Shown: positions 8,253-48,302 of the stretch, in pieces | How the letters are laid out: each line of letters starts with the position of its first letter | Position numbering within the stretch: position 1 is the stretch's first letter | From: Escherichia coli | Lineage (GTDB): Bacteria > Pseudomonadota > Gammaproteobacteria > Enterobacterales > Enterobacteriaceae | Direction: 5' to 3' (one strand) | Assembly: GCF_002854065.1 (NCBI RefSeq) | Contig: NZ_CP024147.1 | DNA: 64,000 nucleotides | Position numbers and translations under genes: made by a program | Notes under the pieces: generated by a model | Told to the model about the DNA's origin: nothing | The model's input: the letters and a program-made list of their open reading frames with translations, nothing else | Database searches by the model: none

Positions 8253-9744
<1,492 letters not shown>

Positions 9745-19964: not shown

Positions 19965-20249
19965 ATGAATATGAAACCGGAAAGCAAAGAAGCGCCAATC
20001 AATATCAGAGCGAAAGCCTCACAGCGTGACCTGATTGATATGGCAGCGAATCTGGTCGCAAAATCGCGCACTGATTTTATGCTGGATGCCGCATGCCGTG
20101 AAGCGCAAGACATCTTATTAGATCAACGACTATTCATCCTTGATGACGAGCAATACGATGCGTTTCTCGCTGCCCTGGACGCCCCCATCACTGCTGAGCG
20201 TCAGGCCAAAATTAACGCGTTGATGAATCGTAAATCGCCATGGGAATAA
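19965..20249 (+). CDS. DUF1778 (ribbon-helix-helix) antitoxin of a GNAT-type type II TA pair (94 aa; TacA/AtaR/KacA-like)
   Basis: MNMKPESKEAPINIRAKASQRDLIDMAANLVAKSRTDFMLDAACREAQDILLDQRLFILDDEQYDAFLAALDAP... fits the DUF1778 pattern; 3' end overlaps the next ORF by 10 nt. Confidence 0.7.
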   Translation: MNMKPESKEAPINIRAKASQRDLIDMAANLVAKSRTDFMLDAACREAQDILLDQRLFILDDEQYDAFLAALDAPITAERQAKINALMNRKSPWE

Positions 20250-20725
20250 CGGCTCCTACTCCCCTAACGTCTGAACATAATCTGGCTGACTTTTGCTGTT
20301 CCGATCACGGGATGAATGAATGGCTAAAAAAGAAAGCATTAAAAAATCACAGCTCCGGTCTGTCTCGTGTTTACGTTATCTGTATTGCCAATACCCGCCA
20401 GGTAATCGGCTATTACTGCCTTTCTACAGGCAGTATTCAACGTAATTTGGCCCCTGGAGCCATGCGACGTAATGCTCCCGAATCGTTGCCTGTTGTCGTA
20501 TTAGGCAGACTGGCAATTGATCAAGCCTGAGCAGGTAAAGGGTTGGGCGTCGCATTGTTGAAAGATGCAGTCTATCGCACAATGTCCATAGCTCAACAGG
20601 TAGGGGTTCGTGCGCTCATTGTTCATGCCTTAGACGATTCAGTACGCAATTTCTATCTGAAGTATGCCTTTGTACCTTCACCATTCCAGTCACTTACCTT
20701 ACTGTATCCCATTACTCTGGAGTAA
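20240..20725 (+). pseudogene. GNAT-family acetyltransferase toxin (TacT/AtaT/KacT-like) interrupted by an in-frame TGA at 20528..20530
   Basis: ORFs 20240..20530 and 20543..20725 are in the same frame; translation ...PLTSEHNLADFCCSDHGMNEWL...VVLGRLAIDQA*AGKGLGVALLKDAV... carries the GNAT acetyl-CoA motif split by the stop. Confidence 0.7.
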
Positions 20726-28684: not shown

Positions 28685-29287
28685 TTACCGCAAAGCCCAC
28701 GCCATCATACCCAACGTAACAAAACTCAGGCACGTTCCCCACTCACTCCACTTCCGTATCTGGCTTCTATTTTTGCTACGCCACTGGCAATAATATCCCA
28801 ACGCAAAACCAAGCTGTGCGCTTATTGGACCGATAAAATCCGTCCACGGCTGAGGCCAAAATGGCGAAAAATTCAGGGGTAGCCAGACAACAAGCAGAAA
28901 GAAATTGCGGATACTTTCCAGCAACGCAATTTTCGCTGGCGCGATGTAAAAAATGATATTCCAGAGGATCAACCATAAATAGACCGGTGCGAATACCAAC
29001 CAACAATGGAGCCTGCTTTTCAATTCAGATTGAGTTCTACGAGTAAATTGCCAACCAACGCAACACATTACACAGAAGAAAAGCGCATATTCAGCCGATA
29101 ACCAAAGTTGTAATTGCAGAAGTGAAATACGCCTGATCATGAGCGGGATTGAGAACAGCATTTCCCCCAGAAAACTCAGCGTGATAATACAAGCAGCCAG
29201 CGCAACCACCATCGGCCACACCAACAACGGCACAATAACAAAGCCGAGAAATAACGGATAAATATAAAGTCTGATTATATTCATCAT
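28685..29287 (-). CDS. Polytopic inner-membrane protein, unknown function (200 aa); third gene of the PstS-like operon
   Basis: Hydrophobic ORF MMNIIRLYIYPLFLGFVIVPLLVWPMVVALAACIITLSF... with about 5-6 predicted TM segments; ATG overlaps the upstream gene's stop by 1 nt. Confidence 0.6.
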   Translation of the reverse strand: MMNIIRLYIYPLFLGFVIVPLLVWPMVVALAACIITLSFLGEMLFSIPLMIRRISLLQLQLWLSAEYALFFCVMCCVGWQFTRRTQSELKSRLHCWLVFAPVYLWLILWNIIFYIAPAKIALLESIRNFFLLVVWLPLNFSPFWPQPWTDFIGPISAQLGFALGYYCQWRSKNRSQIRKWSEWGTCLSFVTLGMMAWALR

Positions 29288-30279
29288 TATTGTCCTGATG
29301 ATTCGGGGGATGCTTCATACAGCAGCACATACCCCACATCCTCTACCAACTGTTGCCCCTGCTGACTTATAAACCAGTCAACAAATTTCTGCGTTTCCGG
29401 CGTGGGATTTTCACGCGTCACCATATAGGCATCCACAATGTATGGATAAGTGCCGTTGCGGATATTTTCCTCGGTAGGCGCAACGCCATTTATAGCCAAA
29501 AGTTTAATCTGCTTGCGCATTTTGAGCATATTGTCATTCATACGAGTGACGTAATAGTGGAAGGTGTACCCAATGGAAGATGGCGTGTTTTGATAGTCGG
29601 CAACTTCAGTAATTAAACCGCCCATAAGATCAATCACAGTAGATTTTTTAGCTGGCAGCATTGGGGTGTCTTGCATAACCAATCCCTTCATAATCGTTTG
29701 GCTTCCAGAATCTTCAGGGCGCTGCCAGACTTTTATATGTTCGTCACTACCACCTACTTTATTCCAGCGGCTAGTTTTGCTGCTAAAAATATCTTTAACC
29801 TGGTGCTCAGAGAGAGAATTTACCGGGTTATTAATATCAACGATAAAGACAAAGGCTTCGCGGGCGAAAGCGGTATATTTCAGTTTAACACCCGCTTCTT
29901 CTGCACGTTTTTTCTGTCCTTCCGACGGTTGTGCAACAAAAATAACCGTCGCGGAACCTTTAATCAGACTATCGTAGGCTTCAGCTGTTCGGGTTTGCTG
30001 CAAACCATACGCCTGCCAGGCCAGCGAGGTTCGATCCTTATCTTTTGGCTCGGGTACTAATTTATAATACGCGGAGGCATACAGCGGGTATAAGGCTGTA
30101 GCGCCGTACACTCTCGGCCATCTTGACCAATCATCGCTGTAACGTAATGCAGGTTGCCCCCGCAGAGACGTCAGTCCATGGCTCTCTTCTTCCCTGACGC
30201 TGTTATAGTACCCTTCCCGGTCGACACATCCCGCCAGTAACGCCGTGCCTAATAGTAAAACACCGGTGAATTTATTCAT
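29287..30279 (-). CDS. PstS-like (PBP_like_2 fold) periplasmic-binding lipoprotein (330 aa)
   Basis: ORF 29287..30342; start set at MNKFTGVLLLGTALLAGC (lipobox LAGC); PstS-like motifs GATALYPLY, RPEDSGSQT, SIGYTFHYY. Confidence 0.7.
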   Translation of the reverse strand: MNKFTGVLLLGTALLAGCVDREGYYNSVREEESHGLTSLRGQPALRYSDDWSRWPRVYGATALYPLYASAYYKLVPEPKDKDRTSLAWQAYGLQQTRTAEAYDSLIKGSATVIFVAQPSEGQKKRAEEAGVKLKYTAFAREAFVFIVDINNPVNSLSEHQVKDIFSSKTSRWNKVGGSDEHIKVWQRPEDSGSQTIMKGLVMQDTPMLPAKKSTVIDLMGGLITEVADYQNTPSSIGYTFHYYVTRMNDNMLKMRKQIKLLAINGVAPTEENIRNGTYPYIVDAYMVTRENPTPETQKFVDWFISQQGQQLVEDVGYVLLYEASPESSGQ

Positions 30280-30304
30280 CTCGCTGATTCCTTTCTCTCG
30301 AGCG

Positions 30305-31822
30305 TTATTCCATTGTTGGATACAGCGGCACATATCCCACATCTTCTACCAGACTCTGCCCCTGCGGCGTTAAAAACCATTCGACCAGTTTTTGTGTTTC
30401 TGACGTTGTATTTTCCCTCGTTACCATAAAGGCATCGACGATATAGGGATATTTGCCGTTGCGAATATTTTCCGCAGTCGGTGTAATACCGTTAATCGCT
30501 AGCAGTTTTATATTTTTATCAGCATTCATTTGCGTCGCGTAATAGCGGAAGGTATAGCCTATTGCGTTGTTTGTATTACGGTATTCGGCAACGACTTTAA
30601 TCATTCCCTCCATCACGCTTGCCACTTCCATTTCCTGCGGCGAGATCATGCGGACATTTTTCATGACCTGTGATTGCATCACTGTCTGGCTGCCAGAGTC
30701 TTCCGGGCGCTGCCAGGTCTGGATCTCCTGATCGTTACCGCCAACAGTACGCCAGTTGGTAATTGCACCACTGAAAATGTCACGCACCTGTTGTTCAGTC
30801 AGGGAATTAACCGGATTATCCGCATTGACGATGAAAACGAATGCTTCACGGGCAAAGGGGGTGTACAGCAAAGTGACACCAGATTCCTTTGCACGTTTTT
30901 TTTGCCCACCGGAAGGTTGCGCCACGAAAATAATATCAGCATCGCCCTTAACGATTTTGTTATATGCTTCTGGCGTACGAGAGTTTTCCAGATAATCCCA
31001 AACGTGAAAATCCTCTGGTATTACACTTAATGCATAAAATGCAGAAGCATAAATTGGGTACGCAGCCGTGGCGCCATCGATTCGCGGCCAGTTTTGCCTA
31101 AACTGAATTTGCGGTTTGCCACGCAGCGGCGTCAGTCGATTATTGAGTTTATCGGGTTGCCAGGCCCAGATATCAATATTTTCGCGTACACCGACACCAG
31201 GATTGAGCTGTTTATATAAATAACCCTGATAACCAGCGACAAAACCAAGCATGAGAAGGATAAACAGGAGGGAATTACGGCAACGTAGCCCGGATGTACC
31301 GGTTAAAGGATGTCTGGTTGGCCGGCCGTACCCCAGCGAAAAACTGATATGCGCGCCAACGGGTATAATGACTATCCACCAGTACTCACCTCCGACTACT
31401 GAGACTAACAAAACGCCCAGCCAGGGGAGCATAAGATCAGCCAACCAACCCGATCCCATCTGGTGAAATTGATAATCTGCCAGATGCAGCGCGATTATCC
31501 AGCCAACCAGGATTAATAAAGCGGGTACTAAAAAAAGACATTGTCGCCAGACGGCTATTTCTCTTTTTTCTGGTGCACTATCGCCTGCCCATACTCGCCC
31601 CGAGAAAAATAGCATTAATGCGCCCAGCGCCAGCATAAAAATGTTGAGCAGAAGGTAAATTGTTGGCGTGATAAGGATATTACAAACTTCAATAATACCG
31701 GCAAGTCCGACACCCAGCATAGCAACAACCGCCGCCAAAAATTGCGTCAGTATGGGGATGCCGAAAAAAGTCATTACCAGCGAGGACAAAATCCATTTTC
31801 TGTTTTGCATTATTCTTTCCAT
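30305..31822 (-). CDS. Fusion protein: N-terminal polytopic membrane domain (about 190 aa) plus C-terminal PstS-like binding domain (505 aa)
   Basis: N-terminus hydrophobic (MERIMQNRKWILSSLVMTFFGIPILTQFLAAVVAML...); C-terminal half paralogous to the lipoprotein (GATAAYPIY, RPEDSGSQT, AIGYTFRYY); alternative start at 31810; TATAAT on minus strand at 31840..31845. Confidence 0.65.
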   Translation of the reverse strand: MERIMQNRKWILSSLVMTFFGIPILTQFLAAVVAMLGVGLAGIIEVCNILITPTIYLLLNIFMLALGALMLFFSGRVWAGDSAPEKREIAVWRQCLFLVPALLILVGWIIALHLADYQFHQMGSGWLADLMLPWLGVLLVSVVGGEYWWIVIIPVGAHISFSLGYGRPTRHPLTGTSGLRCRNSLLFILLMLGFVAGYQGYLYKQLNPGVGVRENIDIWAWQPDKLNNRLTPLRGKPQIQFRQNWPRIDGATAAYPIYASAFYALSVIPEDFHVWDYLENSRTPEAYNKIVKGDADIIFVAQPSGGQKKRAKESGVTLLYTPFAREAFVFIVNADNPVNSLTEQQVRDIFSGAITNWRTVGGNDQEIQTWQRPEDSGSQTVMQSQVMKNVRMISPQEMEVASVMEGMIKVVAEYRNTNNAIGYTFRYYATQMNADKNIKLLAINGITPTAENIRNGKYPYIVDAFMVTRENTTSETQKLVEWFLTPQGQSLVEDVGYVPLYPTME

Positions 31823-43467: not shown

Positions 43468-43472
43468 GGTTC

Positions 43473-43510
43473 AAACAGGTGCTGCACACAACCAGACGCG
43501 GCACCTGTTT
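43473..43510. terminator. Hairpin between yhgN and the DprA-like gene (possible bidirectional terminator)
   Basis: AAACAGGTGC-18 nt-GCACCTGTTT 10-bp inverted repeat followed by TTTTATTACC. Confidence 0.45.
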
Positions 43511-43512
43511 TA

Positions 43513-44715
43513 TTACCTGAACTGATAATGACCTTCGCCCAATCGGATAACCCTTCCCTCTTCTTCTGCGCGGTTCAGCCACACACTAATTTGTTCGATG
43601 GTTAAACCAGTACAAGACGCCAGCCTTTCAATACTTATCGATTCCTTTGCAAGGATCGCCAGTTCCGCCACAAAGAGTTGATAAAAATCGACAGGCGTAT
43701 ACGCGGGCATTACTGCGTAATTTGCGTCATCTTCATGCAGCGAAAACAGTTCTGGTTGAGCGTTACGGAGTGCTCTGTCATACATCAGCCCAGGAACGTC
43801 TGGCAGTCTGATCGTCACATTCTCAGCCTGTTCAGCACTCCATGACGCCCCATTTTCTACTAATCGTGAATTGGCTGATTGCATATCCTGATTTGGTTTA
43901 ACCTGCACAGGCAGCCACTGATGTTTTAATGCCTCCATCGCCCCGGTTATCGTTCCACCGGTCATTCCCGCACGTACAACCATTGCGCTTTCAGCAAGGC
44001 AATAAATATATTTATTTCGCGCCATCGCATTGCCGACGGTGAAACGTACCTCTGGGTAAAACGGCGAAATCAACACCAGGTTGCCTGCTATAAGCCCTTC
44101 ACGCCATTTCACTAACGTACTCGTTTTTAACAAGCTATCAGCTAATACGCCAACGGCAGTTCCCCCGGCCTCCAGTACCGACGCCATTGCACATTCATCA
44201 ATACCTCGCGCACCACCAGAGATAACGCAAATCCCCTGTTGGGCCAGTTTCGCGGCCAGTTGTTGGGTATAGCGCAAATCGTCAGTCGGAGCATCTCGCG
44301 AGCCAACAATCGCCATACCTTCCGCTTGCAGTAATGCTTTATTCCCGCAGCCAAATAAAACGGGAGGTGCATCCGTTCGCAATCGGTTTTTCAAGCGAAC
44401 GGGATAATCAGCATCTCCGCGGGTTAAGATCCATAAACCGGCGCGTTGCCACTTATCTACCGCCAACGCCAGACTATGACCACGCGCCAGCAAGCCAAGA
44501 ATACGCTCCTGAGAAATACGCGGATCGCTCCAGCCTGTAAGTTTCTCTTGCGGTTGCGGCACCAGAAGCTCGGCGGGACTGATACGTTGGTGCTTCAGCC
44601 ATAATGCAAACTTCCCCCATTCACTATTACTAAGAGGTTTATACTCACTCGCCGCCGCGCGAGAAAAATCGCTGGTTAGCAGGAGAGTTGCTTGTGCATT
44701 GGCTGAAAGATTCAT
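43513..44715 (-). CDS. DprA/Smf-like Rossmann-fold protein (about 400 aa), candidate antitoxin of a PsyrTA/ShosTA-like module
   Basis: ORF 43513..44808; DprA signature MAIVGSRDAPTDDLRYTQQLAAKLAQQGICVISGGARGIDECAMASVLEAGGTAVGVLADSL; start favoured at MNLSANAQ, whose ATG overlaps the upstream TGA (ATGA-type coupling). Confidence 0.75.
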   Translation of the reverse strand: MNLSANAQATLLLTSDFSRAAASEYKPLSNSEWGKFALWLKHQRISPAELLVPQPQEKLTGWSDPRISQERILGLLARGHSLALAVDKWQRAGLWILTRGDADYPVRLKNRLRTDAPPVLFGCGNKALLQAEGMAIVGSRDAPTDDLRYTQQLAAKLAQQGICVISGGARGIDECAMASVLEAGGTAVGVLADSLLKTSTLVKWREGLIAGNLVLISPFYPEVRFTVGNAMARNKYIYCLAESAMVVRAGMTGGTITGAMEALKHQWLPVQVKPNQDMQSANSRLVENGASWSAEQAENVTIRLPDVPGLMYDRALRNAQPELFSLHEDDANYAVMPAYTPVDFYQLFVAELAILAKESISIERLASCTGLTIEQISVWLNRAEEEGRVIRLGEGHYQFR

Positions 44716-46822
44716 CAATTTTTTACCGAGGTAGAAGCAAGGGCAAGAGGATAAACCGTCGGGCAACCTGCCTGGCGTAACAGTGCTGTCAGAACTGTCA
44801 GCGTCCATGCAGAATCCACGATATCGTCAACCAGCAACGCCGGACCAGGCATCAAAGGAGGGGTAATCACAAACGCCCCGTCGAGATTTTGACACTGGTG
44901 GAAACGGTTTTGCTGCATTTTCTGCGGTGGATTGTCCACGACTTTTTCAATGGCATCAATAATAGGTAAGCCAAGTTTCGCCGCCAGTCGCCGGGCAAAA
45001 TCAGGAACCAGGTCGAGGTGCTTTAATGAAGGAACGCAGCATACCCAGGTTGGTTCAGGATGCGGATTCCAGCGTTGGCGAACCATTTCCGCACATGCCT
45101 CCACCAGTTCATCACTGAATCGCCCCGTTTTTTTCTCCTGTGCTACCTGCTTTCCCCACCCGGAATCTCCCCAACGAGAAAGGATTCGCCCCGTAGATCC
45201 TTGTAAAATCGCAGGCAAGTTCCCTTTAAATCCGTATTGCGTAAAAGCCCCAGCTGCCACCTGTTTATTGAGATTTAATGACAGGTCAGCGTGTTTAATA
45301 AATAAGTTTGCCGCATGGAGTAAGCCGCTATCAATGTCGGGCGACAACAACGGATGCTGAAGACAACTGCTACATTTACCACAATGTTCGGCACCTGGCT
45401 CATCGAGTGCGCGGCGCAGAAATTGCATTTTGCACTCCTTGGTCGTGATATAGCTTTCAACGTCTGCCAGCTCACTTTTTCTCTGATTCATCAAATGGTT
45501 AATTCGTTCATGGTCAGGAGAAAAACTGACAATTGTTCTGCGCCATAATTTCTCGGTATACACCACAGGCGATGGATTTTCAGCTACCAATAATTTCAGT
45601 GCTTTTTCTATTTGCCCATAACGGAGATTCGTCCGTTGTTCAATGCCTCGTAAGGTAAGACCGTCATTCACGCTAAGTACGTTGAGTATTTCATGAATTT
45701 GCGCCTCCGCAGGAAAGGCGCTTTCACGGAAGAATTTATGAATAGCACGGTCTTCACTGCCGCAAAGCAGTATGCCAACAGCAGAATCGATACCGCGACC
45801 GGCACGCCCCACCTGTTGGTAGTAACCAACTATCGAACCTGGCATCTGGTAATGAATAACAAACCCCAAATCCGGTTTGTCAAAGCCCATTCCCAGCGCC
45901 GTTGTCGCAACCAGCACTTTAATTTTATTTGCCAGCAACGCCTGCTCCAGATATTCCCTGGCAGTATTAGAATCTTCCGCGCCTTCACAAGTCACGCCGC
46001 TGTAGTAAGCAAATGCACTGATACCATTTTTCCTTAACCACTCGGCGACAAGTTCGGCATCGCGAGTAGTCAGGGTATAAACAATTCCCGATTTGGAAAA
46101 CTGAGGGAAAACTGAGGGATAACCGTTGCTAACCATGCCAGACGGGATGACTGTTCACCTAAGACTAAGGCATCAAGCGCCAAACTTTCGCGAGCCAGCG
46201 TTCCACGCTGAATCACAATGTCACCCAATTGCTGACGGATATCCTCAACGACACGGTTATTCGCTGTCGCGGTTGTACCCAGAACAGGGGTATTCGCAGG
46301 TAGTTGGCGCAAAATATCTAATATACGTCGGTAATCCGGGCGAAAATCGTGGCCCCAATCAGAGATGCAGTGCGCCTCGTCGACCACAAGCAAGCCAATA
46401 TGATCGGCTATAGGATATAAAACCGTTTCGATAAAGTCCTGGTTTGCCAAACGTTCCGGGGAAACCAGCAAGCAATCGACCTCACCTTGCAGCAACTTAT
46501 CGCTAATGCGCTGCCATTCTTCTCTGTTTGTAGAATTCAACGTTTCAGCCGTAATACCTAACCGTTCAGCGGCGGCAACCTGGTTACGCATCAGGGCAAG
46601 CAAAGGAGAGATGATAATTGTCGGGCCAGCGCCGCGATCGCGGAAGATTTTACTGGCGATGAAGTACACAGCACTTTTCCCCCAGCCAGTGCGTTGGACA
46701 ACCAGCAGTTTTCGCCGTTGGTTCACCACCGCGTCTATGGCTTCCCATTGCCCTTCCCTGAAAGTAGCGGTGGTATTTCCTAACATCCGCTGTAAAAGCA
46801 ATTCAGCTGCGTGCTTTTCCAT
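44715..46822 (-). pseudogene. RecQ-like helicase fused to a C-terminal PRTase domain (PsyrT/RqlH-like toxin candidate), frameshifted by an 11-bp tandem duplication
   Basis: ORF 46070..46822 has helicase motifs I-III (QRTGWGKS, VVDEAHCISDWGHDFRPDYRRI, GTTATA); ORF 44715..46136 in another frame has helicase motifs IV-VI (YQQVGRAGRG) and a PRTase motif (LLVDDIVDSAWT); deleting one repeat copy at 46096..46117 joins them into about 698 aa. Confidence 0.75.
46095..46119. repeat. 11-bp perfect tandem duplication (GAAAACTGAGG x2) inside the helicase gene
   Basis: Forward ...tttgGAAAACTGAGGGAAAACTGAGGgat...; on the coding strand both frames read PQFS across the copies. Confidence 0.9.
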
Positions 46823-46924
46823 CTTTATCTCCTGCGATCTTTAGGCAGTGATTAGAACGGATTATTTGCAGGTAAATTTGCGAGAGAGATCAAAAAGATG
46901 AAGAGAGGAGAAAAGAGAAATGAA

Positions 46925-46948
46925 TTACTGCGAGCAAGCTCGCAGTAA
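46925..46948 (-). terminator. Hairpin downstream of gntU (candidate terminator)
   Basis: TTACTGCGAGC-aa-GCTCGCAGTAA perfect inverted repeat, then TTCATTTCTCTTTTCTCC on the minus strand; sits between the gntU stop and the helicase start. Confidence 0.5.
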
Positions 46949-46961
46949 TTTGTCGCAGTAA

Positions 46962-48302
46962 TTAACTCAACAGCTGGAACGCAATCATCCCAACGATGGC
47001 ACCGACAGTGCCGAGGATGGTTTCCATCATGGTCCAGGTTTTCAGCGTTTCGGCTTCGGTCGCGCCGGTAAATTTACCGAACAACCAGAAACCAGCGTCG
47101 TTAACGTGGCTGACAACAATCGAACCACCGGCGATACAAATCGACAGCGCCGCCATTTGCGCACCGGAGTAGTTCAGTTGTTCAATAACCGGCATCACCA
47201 GTCCCACCGCCGTTAAACAGGCAACGGTTGCAGAACCCTGAATGATGCGCACTGCAGCGGCCAGCACGAAGCAGGTGATGGCAATCGGCAGGCCCATGCC
47301 GGTTAACGCTTCGCCCAGTGCCGGACCTACGCCAGAGTCAACCAGCACCTGTTTGAACACGCCGCCCGCACCAATCACCAGCAGAATGATCCCCGCCGGT
47401 TGCAGCGCGTGACCGCAAATATCCATCACTTTGTCTTTTGGCATGCCCTGACGCATTGCCAGGCCATAAATCGCTACCAGACAAGCAACCAGAATCGCGG
47501 TAAACGGATGACCAATAAACTCGAACCATTCGTAAGCGGTAGAGCCTTCCGGCACAAAACGCGCGGCAATGGTTTTCAGCCCCACCAGCACCAGCGGCAG
47601 CAGGATCAGCGACAGGCTGAATCCGAAGGACGGCATTTTGCCTTCGCCGAGATGCGGCTCGCTGATGTCGTCAGGAATATGCAGCTCAACGTAACGGCTG
47701 ATGAAGTTACCCCACAGCGGCCCGGCAATAATCATTCCCGGAATTGCCGCACACAGGCCAATCAGGATCATCCAGCCAAAATCGGCGTTCATCTGCGATG
47801 CCAGCAGCATTGGCGCTGGCCCAGGCACCAGGAACGCCGCCGCGGCCGCCACGCCTGCGAATAATGGGATTACCAGCTTCACCAGGTTCGTACCGGTGTG
47901 GCGCGCCATTGAGAAAGCAACGCTAATCAGCAGAACAATCGCCACTTCAAAGAACAGCGGTAGCGCACAGACCAGCCCCGCAAGGCCGATGGCATAATGC
48001 GCGCGGCTGTGACCGAAGGATTTGAGCATTTTGACGGCAATCTGATCGACTGCGCCGGTTTCATGTAAGATCTTGCCAAACATAGCTCCCAGGGCGACAA
48101 CCACCGCCAGGAAGCCGAGGGTGCCTCCCATCCCTTTTTCCATCGTCGCTGCGATTTTATCGAGCGGCATACCGGAAAAAAGGCCAGCCCCCATGGACAC
48201 CACCATTAAAGCCAGGAAAGCGTGCATACGCGCCTTCATGACTAAAAACAGCAGCAGTAAAACAGACCCTACTGCTGTTAAAACAAGCGTTAATGTAGTC
48301 AC
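46962..48302 (-). CDS. gntU: Low-affinity gluconate transporter GntU (446 aa)
   Basis: 446-aa polytopic ORF MTTLTLVLTAVGSVLLLLFLVMKARMHAFLALMVV..., GntP family. Confidence 0.95.
   Translation of the reverse strand: MTTLTLVLTAVGSVLLLLFLVMKARMHAFLALMVVSMGAGLFSGMPLDKIAATMEKGMGGTLGFLAVVVALGAMFGKILHETGAVDQIAVKMLKSFGHSRAHYAIGLAGLVCALPLFFEVAIVLLISVAFSMARHTGTNLVKLVIPLFAGVAAAAAFLVPGPAPMLLASQMNADFGWMILIGLCAAIPGMIIAGPLWGNFISRYVELHIPDDISEPHLGEGKMPSFGFSLSLILLPLVLVGLKTIAARFVPEGSTAYEWFEFIGHPFTAILVACLVAIYGLAMRQGMPKDKVMDICGHALQPAGIILLVIGAGGVFKQVLVDSGVGPALGEALTGMGLPIAITCFVLAAAVRIIQGSATVACLTAVGLVMPVIEQLNYSGAQMAALSICIAGGSIVVSHVNDAGFWLFGKFTGATEAETLKTWTMMETILGTVGAIVGMIAFQLLS

What the first reader, a model, noticed from the sequence alone, without database searches (positions are those of the whole stretch)
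43513..46822. PsyrTA/ShosTA-like toxin-antitoxin (candidate anti-phage) module inserted between yhgN and gntU
About 3.4 kb separates yhgN from gntU, where I recall these genes being almost adjacent in K-12. It encodes, on the minus strand, a RecQ-like helicase with a C-terminal phosphoribosyltransferase-like domain followed by a translationally coupled DprA/Smf-like protein. A RecQ-like toxin with a DprA-like partner is the PsyrTA (RqlHI) architecture, and a PRTase toxin with a DprA-like partner is the ShosTA architecture; both have been reported as TA pairs with phage-defence activity. The combined helicase plus PRTase fusion may be an under-described variant. No integrase or IS flanks the insertion.
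Basis: partly seen in the sequence, partly recalled or inferred. Interest (0 to 1): 0.7.

Follow-up and report, generated by a model that had tools for sequence, protein, structure and literature searches.

The report
Known rqlHI/PsyrTA operon, toxin frameshifted
This is the already described E. coli rqlHI (PsyrTA) toxin-antitoxin operon found between yhgN and gntU in about 30% of E. coli strains, and in this strain an 11-base duplication has broken the toxin gene, so it is an ordinary, probably inactive copy.

Summary
On the minus strand, 3,494 bp (43468-46961) fill the yhgN-gntU gap that is 56 bp in K-12. They carry a RecQ-type helicase with a C-terminal PRTase domain, then a DprA-family gene whose ATG overlaps the helicase stop (TGATG).

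PADLOC matches are end to end: PsyrT 5-687 of 689 positions, PsyrA 1-397 of 398, E 1e-122 to 1e-202. This is not a new variant. It is the E. coli rqlH-rqlI operon of Russell & Mulvey 2015, with identical K49, D148 and D663 numbering and a 400-aa RqlI. Millman et al. 2022 cloned the same locus from E. coli STEC 1299 as PsyrTA construct SG127 and recorded no defence. The helicase-PRTase fusion is the canonical toxin architecture.

About 1,650 of 5,426 complete E. coli genomes carry the operon at this site and 3,774 have the empty site.

In this window the toxin gene is a pseudogene. An 11-bp tandem duplication (46095-46118) shifts the frame at codon 240, between the two helicase lobes. Only 2 of the 5,426 genomes share it. 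psyrA is intact.

At least 294 carriers have a broken toxin, including 292 O157:H7-type genomes with a 29-bp duplication. The antitoxin was full length in all 60 sampled genomes.

Verdict: already known, low interest.

The parts
46070..46822 (-). 5' fragment of psyrT/rqlH. It has 239 native codons covering RecA-like lobe 1, with Walker A K49 and DEAH D148. These are followed by 11 out-of-frame codons and a stop.
   Evidence: ORF list. PADLOC PsyrT 2.7e-122, profile positions 5-241 of 689. Residues K49 and D148. PGAP calls the identical CUWW06 gene 'frameshifted'.
46095..46118 (-). 11-bp tandem duplication (CCCTCAGTTTT x2 plus 2 bp; the phase is ambiguous) that frameshifts psyrT at codon 240.
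   Evidence: Alignment with the intact ES5 allele shows 11 extra bases at 46095-46105. Sequence read directly. A junction-specific megablast query found it in only 2 of 5,426 complete E. coli genomes.
44715..46136 (-). 3' part of psyrT/rqlH: RecA-like lobe 2, Zn-binding region and PRTase domain with the PRPP-loop motif DIVD663. The native frame resumes after the duplication. The ORF's ATG at 46136 is fortuitous and has no Shine-Dalgarno sequence at proper spacing.
   Evidence: ORF list. PADLOC PsyrT 9.9e-193, profile positions 237-687 of 689. The repaired protein differs from intact ES5 at 2 of 698 residues. PRTase fold supported.
43513..44715 (-). psyrA/rqlI: intact 400-aa DprA-family antitoxin with a possible C-terminal HTH. 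Its ATG overlaps the psyrT stop (TGATG).
   Evidence: PADLOC PsyrA 7.2e-202, profile positions 1-397 of 398, starting at residue 32 of the 431-aa ORF. PF02481 6.1e-50. DprA and ShosA structures matched. 391 of 400 residues identical to PsyrA of Millman construct SG127. Overlap read directly.
46823..46961 (-). 139-bp gntU-psyrT spacer. It contains the gntU terminator-like hairpin (46923-46950) and presumably the operon's own promoter and RBS (AGGAGA 7 nt before the ATG).
   Evidence: Terminator-like hairpin found, no sigma-70 consensus promoter found. Sequence. Millman's SG127 clone starts at window position 46962 and relied on this native upstream region.
43468..43512 (.). 45-bp psyrA-yhgN spacer between the convergent genes. 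It holds an inverted repeat, AACAGGTGC...GCACCTGTT (43474-43509), followed by a T-run. It is a possible bidirectional terminator.
   Evidence: Read directly from the sequence. The terminator scan did not report it, because the 18-nt loop exceeds its limit. This part is inference.

Best explanation
**Identity.** The locus is the chromosomal E. coli rqlH-rqlI operon, which DefenseFinder and PADLOC call PsyrTA. It is a presence/absence polymorphism at the yhgN-gntU junction.

**How intact alleles work.**
- RqlH/PsyrT (698 aa) is a RecQ-type SF2 helicase fused to a ComF-like type I PRTase domain.
- When it is not restrained it is genotoxic: it induces SOS, filamentation and mutagenesis. This requires the PRPP-loop aspartate D663. 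The PRTase domain alone is not toxic. These results are published for E. coli F11.
- RqlI/PsyrA (400 aa) is a DprA-family Rossmann/SLOG protein with a C-terminal HTH. It is co-transcribed and translationally coupled. It binds RqlH and neutralises it (published).

**State in this window.**
- An 11-bp tandem duplication at codon 240 splits psyrT between the two helicase lobes. This is shown.
- The antitoxin is intact. This is shown.
- Full-length toxin therefore cannot be made, and the module is most likely a recently inactivated, non-toxic and non-defensive remnant with an orphan antitoxin. This is inferred.

**Anti-phage role.** It is demonstrated only for a Bacillus homologue. It is unproven for the E. 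coli allele, with two negative tests.
For: **Family match.** PADLOC matches are end to end for PsyrT and PsyrA. RecQ, PRTase and DprA domains are confirmed.

**Same operon as published.**
- K49, D148 and DIVD663 numbering and the 400-aa RqlI are identical to Russell & Mulvey 2015.
- Their strains are B2 ExPEC. B2 strain ST131 carries intact genes at the same locus.
- Millman's SG127 clone starts at window position 46962, with 393 of 399 nt identical. It lists PsyrT as 698 aa and PsyrA as 400 aa.

**The frameshift is real.**
- It is an 11-bp tandem duplication relative to the intact ES5 allele.
- PGAP marks the identical gene as frameshifted.
- It occurs in two independent complete genomes, from Thailand wastewater and from Gambian stool. 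The Gambian genome also has an IS5 in the gene.

**It is recent.** Apart from the duplication, the repaired ORF differs from the intact ES5 protein at only 2 of 698 residues and has no further disruption. In addition, the repaired allele compared with ST131 gives dN/dS 0.069, which shows that the gene is under purifying selection in the species.

**TA-like asymmetry.**
- psyrT is disrupted in at least 294 of about 1,650 carriers.
- psyrA is present at 80% coverage or more in all 1,650 carriers. It is exactly 1,203 bp, ungapped, in 60 of 60 evenly sampled genomes.

**Defence context of homologues.** An E. coli IncF plasmid pair sits inside a type I R-M operon. An Acinetobacter plasmid pair sits next to BREX pglX.
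Against: - Nothing here measures expression or toxicity.
- ORF2 (473 aa) starts at an ATG upstream of the break and, after 12 out-of-frame leader residues, carries native residues 237-698. A C-terminal product is not formally excluded. Published helicase-dead K49A and D148A mutants kept some toxicity.
- No consensus sigma-70 promoter was found upstream, so transcription of the operon is only assumed. RT-PCR in F11 and RNA-seq studies support it.
- Whether the site reflects an insertion or a deletion in K-12-like strains was not resolved.
Confidence: 0.93

Rival explanations
1. Split but functional. The duplication falls at the linker between the two RecA-like lobes. Two polypeptides would be made: 1-239 plus an 11-residue tail, and a 473-aa product from ATG 46136. 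They would reassemble, or the C-terminal piece would act alone. The system would stay toxic or defensive, which would explain why psyrA is retained.
For: - The two ORFs overlap by 67 nt and together cover every native residue.
- Helicase-dead RqlH mutants retained PRTase-dependent toxicity.
- psyrA is intact.
Against: - There is no Shine-Dalgarno sequence within 5-10 nt of ATG 46136. The nearest AGGTGA lies 18 nt upstream.
- ORF1's stop is 67 nt downstream of that ATG, so termination-reinitiation is unlikely.
- The allele is rare, 2 of 5,426 genomes, and one of the two carriers has since gained an IS5 in the gene. That looks like decay.
- Antitoxin retention is equally expected shortly after toxin loss.
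Confidence: 0.05
2. In E. coli, even the intact rqlHI operon is not a phage-defence system. It would be a DNA-metabolism or fitness module with TA-like behaviour, and the 'defence' label would come only from homology.
For: - The E. coli STEC 1299 operon gave no observed defence.
- NILS69 PsyrTA gave no protection either natively or in K-12.
- Russell & Mulvey found that rqlI is needed for gut colonisation and microaerobic growth, and proposed a cooperative function on DNA.
- The chromosomal locus lies between core metabolic genes and not in a defence island.
Against: - The Bacillus homologue protects against phage.
- Proteobacterial plasmid homologues are embedded in a type I R-M operon and next to BREX.
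- The phage panels tested were small.
- The accessory, patchy distribution (30%) is typical of defence genes.
Confidence: 0.3
3. The frameshift is a sequencing or assembly artefact, and the toxin is really intact.
For: Single-assembly frameshifts are common, especially in long-read assemblies.
Against: - An exact 11-bp tandem duplication is not a homopolymer-type error.
- The same junction is found in two other, independent complete genomes from different continents.
- The window is not identical to either. It has 5 mismatches in 30 kb against CUWW06 and lacks its IS1.
Confidence: 0.02
4. It is a ShosTA system, or a hybrid of ShosTA and PsyrTA.
For: Both families pair a PRTase-bearing toxin with a DprA-like antitoxin. 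ShosA HMM 4.9e-26. The ShosA structure 9vzo is hit at 6.4e-7.
Against: - The PsyrA model scores 7.2e-202 over its full length, while ShosA matches only partially.
- The ShosT model reaches only E 0.037 on the PRTase domain.
- ShosT has no helicase.
Confidence: 0.01

Closest known systems
RqlH-RqlI of extraintestinal pathogenic E. coli F11, CFT073 and 536 (Russell & Mulvey 2015, PMC4670107)
   Same: - Same species and same two-gene operon, with rqlH upstream and a stop/start overlap.
- Same lengths, 698 aa and 400 aa.
- Same residue numbering for K49, D148 and DIVD663.
- The B2 allele sits at the same yhgN-gntU site. It is 97.1% (PsyrT) and 99% (PsyrA) identical at protein level.
   Different: Here rqlH is frameshifted by an 11-bp duplication. 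The nucleotide allele belongs to the O157/O55/ES5-like clade, at least 99% identical to it and 94.6% identical to the B2 allele.
PsyrTA as defined in PADLOC and DefenseFinder (Sberro 2013; Millman 2022), including construct SG127 from E. coli STEC 1299 and the verified system from Bacillus sp. FJAT-29814
   Same: Full-length HMM matches to both components. SG127 is this same locus.
   Different: SG127 showed no defence; only the Bacillus system did. The toxin here is a pseudogene.
ShosTA (Kimelman 2012; Rousset 2022; Nat Commun 2025, PMC11961720)
   Same: PRTase-type toxin plus DprA-like, ssDNA-binding antitoxin. Toxicity acts through DNA damage and filamentation.
   Different: - ShosT has no helicase.
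- ShosA pairs a SAM domain with a DprA domain.
- HMM scores are far lower.
- Unlike ShosTA, which the paper classes as a type IV TA system, RqlI co-immunoprecipitates with RqlH.
Solo RqlH of Mycobacterium smegmatis and other actinobacteria and archaea
   Same: Same RecQ plus PRTase architecture. It is 41% identical to F11 RqlH. Plasmid homologues in Arthrobacter, Tsukamurella, Halomicrobium and Halanaeroarchaeum are 39-44% identical over the full length.
   Different: No adjacent DprA-like gene.
Competence proteins ComFA, ComFC/GntX and DprA
   Same: Helicase, ComF-type PRTase and DprA domains. The predicted PRTase domain matches H. pylori ComF 7p0h with TM 0.53. GntX and ComF HMMs are weak hits.
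   Different: These are separate housekeeping genes. The canonical gntX is in this window, while dprA lies elsewhere in the genome. They show no TA behaviour.

Membership tests
PsyrTA / RqlHI | The toxin has an N-terminal RecQ-type SF2 helicase core (DEAD, Helicase_C, Zn-binding). | tested here: met
   Pfam DEAD 1.9e-25, Helicase_C 9.5e-13, RecQ_Zn_bind 0.0031. NCBIfam recQ_fam on both fragments. E. coli RecQ 1oyw matched at 3.5e-53.
PsyrTA / RqlHI | The toxin has a C-terminal PRTase domain with a PRPP-binding loop (DIVD663). | tested here: met
   - PF00156 is weak on the single sequence, E 0.0087 and 0.0021.
- A 10-sequence profile hit 40 PDB sequences, nearly all type I PRTases or PRPP synthetases, best E 1.9e-5.
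- The AF2 model has pLDDT 92.1. Its top 50 Foldseek hits are almost all named PRTase-fold proteins, including ComF.
- DIVD is at residue 663.
PsyrTA / RqlHI | Full-length match to the family's toxin and antitoxin profile HMMs. | tested here: met
   PsyrT positions 5-241 and 237-687 of 689, E 2.7e-122 and 9.9e-193. PsyrA positions 1-397 of 398, E 7.2e-202.
PsyrTA / RqlHI | A DprA-family antitoxin lies immediately downstream on the same strand, close to or overlapping the toxin stop. | tested here: met
   PF02481 6.1e-50. TGATG overlap. Same order in E. coli plasmid, Nostoc and Acinetobacter homologues.
PsyrTA / RqlHI | Intact toxin reading frame, meaning a functional system. | tested here: not met
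   An 11-bp tandem duplication frameshifts the gene at codon 240. PGAP labels it 'frameshifted'. The locus belongs to the family by descent but is a degraded copy.
PsyrTA / RqlHI | The toxin is toxic when expressed alone, and the cognate antitoxin neutralises it. | not testable with these tools
   Published for the orthologous E. coli F11 proteins. Millman could not obtain a delta-psyrA mutant.
PsyrTA / RqlHI | Protection against phage. | not testable with these tools
   Published as positive for Bacillus sp. FJAT-29814. Negative for E. coli STEC 1299 and for E. coli NILS69.
ShosTA | ShosT-type stand-alone PRTase toxin without a helicase, matching the ShosT HMM. | tested here: not met
   ShosT HMM E 0.037 on the PRTase domain. 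The toxin is a 698-aa helicase fusion.
ShosTA | ShosA-type antitoxin as the best-matching family. | tested here: not met
   ShosA 4.9e-26, a partial match, against PsyrA 7.2e-202 over the full length.
Dpd (7-deazaguanine DNA modification) DpdF helicase | Match above the curated DpdF cut-off, with dpd gene neighbours. | tested here: not met
   NCBIfam DpdF scores 76.6 and 69.8 bits against a cut-off of 550. There are no dpd genes nearby. The PADLOC 'DpdF' hits reflect the shared RecQ-like core, plus two short models that match the PsyrT C-terminus.

The most novel reading that the evidence does not exclude
psyrT may be repeatedly switched off in E. coli by short tandem duplications while psyrA is always kept. 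Two such events are seen: 11 bp here, and 29 bp in the sampled O157:H7-type genomes. Tandem duplications can revert precisely. They could therefore act as a heritable but reversible ON/OFF switch for a costly genotoxic defence module. Alternatively, the pattern could reveal an RqlH-independent function of RqlI that is under selection.
Probability: 0.07. Interest if true: 0.4.

Novelty: already known. Interest (0 to 1): 0.13.

Why it matters
There is little new biology here. The operon, its architecture, its TA behaviour and its place in defence-system catalogues are all published, and this copy is a pseudogenised one.

The useful by-product is a caveat for pan-genome defence censuses.
- HMM-based tools will probably still score this locus as PsyrTA. 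The same applies to the 292 O157:H7-type genomes with a 29-bp duplication and 1-bp deletion in psyrT.
- Published work reports PsyrTA enrichment in phylogroup E2 with an odds ratio of 7.81. If E2 includes the O157:H7 lineage, as I recall but did not check, that figure would largely count broken toxins.
- The asymmetry is a clean natural illustration of TA decay order. The toxin is broken in at least 18% of carriers, while the antitoxin is full length in 60 of 60 sampled genomes.

Tried and rejected
- **Single-sequence AlphaFold of the PRTase domain** gave pLDDT 41.8 and was unusable. I replaced it with a 10-sequence alignment built from plasmid homologues.
- **Single-sequence phmmer of the C-terminal domain against the PDB** gave only E 0.25 hits. 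The profile search was needed.
- **Promoter scan** found no sigma-70 consensus upstream of psyrT, so the promoter remains unlocated.
- **Outgroup scan.**
  - I used one genome-contig scan with a degenerate pattern for DDIVDSAWTLTV, to ask whether the module sits at yhgN-gntU in other Escherichia or Enterobacteriaceae.
  - It returned a single unrelated Sumerlaeota MAG.
  - Insertion versus ancestral presence with loss is therefore unresolved.
  - The pattern was probably too strict.
- **Phage collection** holds no full-length homologues.
- **Remnants of either state** at the K-12 versus window junctions: none found. The two intergenic sequences are unrelated.
- **Base composition** shows no foreign-DNA signature. 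GC is 0.44-0.55 across the module.
- **ShosTA and DpdF membership** were considered and rejected.
Full report
**What is in the sequence**

The interval 43468-46961 lies between the stop codons of yhgN (plus strand, ends 43467) and gntU (minus strand, ORF 46962-48302). It holds three large minus-strand ORFs:
- 46070-46822, 250 aa
- 44715-46136, 473 aa
- 43513-44808, 431 aa, with an internal start at 44715 that gives 400 aa

The first two ORFs are two halves of one gene. Alignment with the intact allele of strain ES5 shows 11 extra bases at 46095-46105. Reading the sequence shows a perfect tandem duplication, CCCTCAGTTTT CCCTCAGTTTT, on the coding strand. Removing one copy restores a 698-aa ORF that differs from the ES5 protein at two residues.

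The break is at codon 240, between the two RecA-like helicase lobes. The 5' fragment ends after 11 out-of-frame codons. PGAP annotates the identical gene in strain CUWW06 as 'RecQ family ATP-dependent DNA helicase, frameshifted'.

The toxin stop and the downstream start share a base (TGATG, 44717-44713). This supports translational coupling and a 400-aa product. PGAP's 431-aa call is probably too long, because the PsyrA model aligns from residue 32 of that ORF.

**Domain and family identity**

PADLOC models match both proteins end to end:
- PsyrT: E 2.7e-122 for profile positions 5-241, and 9.9e-193 for positions 237-687, of 689.
- PsyrA: E 7.2e-202 for positions 1-397 of 398.
- ShosA scores only 4.9e-26, and ShosT scores 0.037 on the C-terminal domain.

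For the helicase, Pfam finds DEAD, Helicase_C and a weak RecQ_Zn_bind. The best solved relatives are E. coli RecQ and human BLM, RECQ1 and WRN.

The PRTase call is weak for the single sequence, at PF00156 E 0.0087, so I tested it further:
- I aligned ten full-length homologues from E. coli, an E. coli plasmid, Nostoc, Acinetobacter, Sinorhizobium, two haloarchaea and two actinobacteria.
- The profile of their C-terminal domains hit 40 PDB sequences, nearly all type I PRTases or PRPP synthetases, best E 1.9e-5, centred on the PRPP loop.
- AlphaFold with that alignment gave pLDDT 92.1.
- Its top 50 Foldseek matches in the PDB are almost all named PRTase-fold proteins: APRT, HGPRT, PurF, OPRT and H. 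pylori ComF.

PsyrA carries PF02481 at 6.1e-50 and a SLOG-type signal. It matches DprA and ShosA crystal structures.

**It is the published E. coli system**

Russell & Mulvey (PMC4670107) characterised rqlH-rqlI in ExPEC strains F11, CFT073 and 536. They describe:
- a helicase with a C-terminal PRTase domain (residues 509-690)
- mutants K49A, D148A, D663A and DIVD663EVME
- a 400-aa RqlI containing a DprA-homology region and an HTH
- co-transcription, physical interaction and TA-like behaviour

In the protein encoded here, K is at position 49, D at 148 and DIVD at 663. A B2 strain (ST131) carries intact genes at the same yhgN-gntU site.

Millman et al. 2022 equate PsyrTA with RqlHI and state that the toxin has a PRTase domain. 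Their Table S2 lists construct SG127, 'PsyrTA, Escherichia coli STEC 1299', 3,485 bp:
- Its first base corresponds to window position 46962, and 393 of the first 399 nt are identical.
- It lists PsyrT as 698 aa and PsyrA as 400 aa. PsyrA is identical to the window protein at 391 of 400 residues.
- The column 'observed defense' reads 'x'.
- The Bacillus sp. FJAT-29814 construct SG128 reads 'v'.

An independent study of E. coli NILS69 found no protection from its PsyrTA and a growth defect when it was expressed in K-12.

The helicase-PRTase fusion is therefore not an under-described variant. It is the canonical and experimentally dissected architecture.

**Population picture**

| Query against 5,426 complete E. 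coli genomes | Result |
|---|---|
| Whole module with flanks, at least 80% covered in one place | 1,641 genomes |
| psyrT | 1,650 genomes |
| psyrA | 1,650 genomes |
| Empty K-12-type junction | 3,774 genomes |

The site is essentially a two-state polymorphism with about 30% occupancy, and it is always chromosomal. K-12 has a 56-bp spacer, and identity with the window stops exactly at the two stop codons. No integrase or IS flanks the module, and GC content is unremarkable.

Toxin and antitoxin fare differently across carriers:
- A junction-specific query finds the 11-bp duplication in only two genomes. These are CUWW06 (Thailand, wastewater) and 100416 (Gambia, stool). The second also has an IS5 in the gene.
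- O157:H7 genomes carry a different lesion: a 29-bp tandem duplication in the PRTase region plus a 1-bp deletion. The duplication is present in 292 genomes.
- O55:H7 strain DEC5B gave a match one base shorter than the query, consistent with the deletion alone.
- Another strain has an IncI1 plasmid integrated in psyrT.
- In an evenly spaced sample of 40 psyrT hits, 31 showed no net length change.
- psyrA was exactly 1,203 bp and ungapped in 60 of 60 sampled genomes, and was at least 80% covered in all 1,650.

Comparing the repaired window allele with the ST131 allele gives dN/dS 0.069 for psyrT and 0.12 for psyrA. The genes are therefore under purifying selection in the species. Because the repaired window ORF also differs from intact ES5 at only 2 of 698 residues, with no further disruption, the break here is recent.

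**Mechanism**

The published results for the orthologue are as follows:
- RqlH alone induces SOS, filamentation, mutagenesis and growth arrest.
- This requires the PRPP-loop aspartate of the PRTase domain together with other parts of the protein.
- RqlI binds RqlH and suppresses these effects.

What is shown here is that full-length RqlH cannot be translated, and that the antitoxin is intact and still preceded by the coupled junction.

I infer that the module in this strain is non-toxic and non-defensive. It is a decaying TA pair in which the toxin was lost first, as TA logic predicts.

The main alternative is a functional split protein, which I consider unlikely:
- ATG 46136 has no usable Shine-Dalgarno sequence.
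- The PRTase domain alone is not toxic.
- One of the two other carriers has already accumulated a second lesion.

Whether intact E. coli alleles defend against any phage remains open. Two negative tests argue against it. On the other side, homologous pairs on an E. coli IncF plasmid and an Acinetobacter plasmid sit inside a type I R-M operon and beside BREX pglX, and the Bacillus system is protective.

**Verdict**

The system is already known, and interest is low.

Noticed in passing
window 19965-20725 (+), between malT and rtcA: A second TA-like pair with a broken toxin. A 94-aa DUF1778 antitoxin-like ORF (19965-20249) overlaps a GNAT acetyltransferase toxin-like gene. An internal stop splits that gene into 20240-20530 and 20543-20725. 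PGAP calls it 'GNAT family N-acetyltransferase, internal stop' in the near-identical CUWW06 genome.
   Followed up: partly
L003 3097-3154 (O157:H7 PV15-279); corresponds to window about 44995 and 46306: O157:H7-type genomes carry psyrT inactivated by a 29-bp tandem duplication in the PRTase region plus a 1-bp deletion. The duplication is in 292 of 5,426 complete genomes, and psyrA is intact. Published censuses report PsyrTA as enriched in phylogroup E2; I did not check whether E2 includes the O157:H7 lineage.
   Followed up: partly
window 44715-46822 versus L005 2501-4597 (ST131): Divergence between the window allele and the B2 allele of psyrT is mosaic. Three 150-nt patches at operon nt 1-150, 301-450 and 901-1050 hold 17-27 differences each, against 0-7 elsewhere. 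dS is 0.21 for psyrT, about 0.10 for the flanking core genes and 0.036 for psyrA. This suggests imported recombination tracts.
   Followed up: no
L008 1-8127 (E. coli IncFIA/IncFIC plasmid NZ_OX030731.1): A PsyrTA homologue, 60% identical in the toxin, is inserted inside a type I restriction-modification operon in the order hsdM, hsdS, RecQ-PRTase, DprA, hsdR. In an Acinetobacter plasmid (L010) the pair lies between BREX pglX and a DUF262 gene.
   Followed up: no
PADLOC models PDLC02869 and PDLC02866, hit by window 44715-46136: Two short PADLOC models labelled 'DpdF' (74 and 255 positions) match the PRTase C-terminus of PsyrT at E 5e-54 and 8e-19. They look like models built from PsyrT-type C-terminal fragments and could cause spurious DpdF calls.
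   Followed up: no
window 43513-44808: PGAP annotates the antitoxin as 431 aa from ATG 44808, overlapping psyrT by 94 nt. The experimentally used RqlI/PsyrA is 400 aa from ATG 44715, and the PsyrA HMM starts at residue 32 of the long ORF.
   Followed up: yes
window 28685-31822 (-), between glpD and glgP: Three extra genes: a 200-aa hypothetical protein and two PstS-family substrate-binding proteins of 351 and 505 aa. In CUWW06 the 505-aa gene is interrupted by IS1, which the window lacks. The window is therefore a close relative of CUWW06 and not the same genome, with 5 mismatches in 30 kb.
   Followed up: partly
L006 6001-13488 (E. coli g1-11, NZ_AP040965.1): In this strain psyrT is truncated at its 5' end by IncI1-type conjugative plasmid genes (traF, traH, traI, traJ). 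A plasmid appears to have integrated into the toxin gene, and psyrA is intact.
   Followed up: no
window about 9061-9744 (+): The housekeeping ComF-family PRTase gene gntX ('DNA utilization protein') lies in the same window (shifted by the 777-bp IS1 offset). It belongs to the PRTase family that the PsyrT C-terminal domain most resembles.
   Followed up: no
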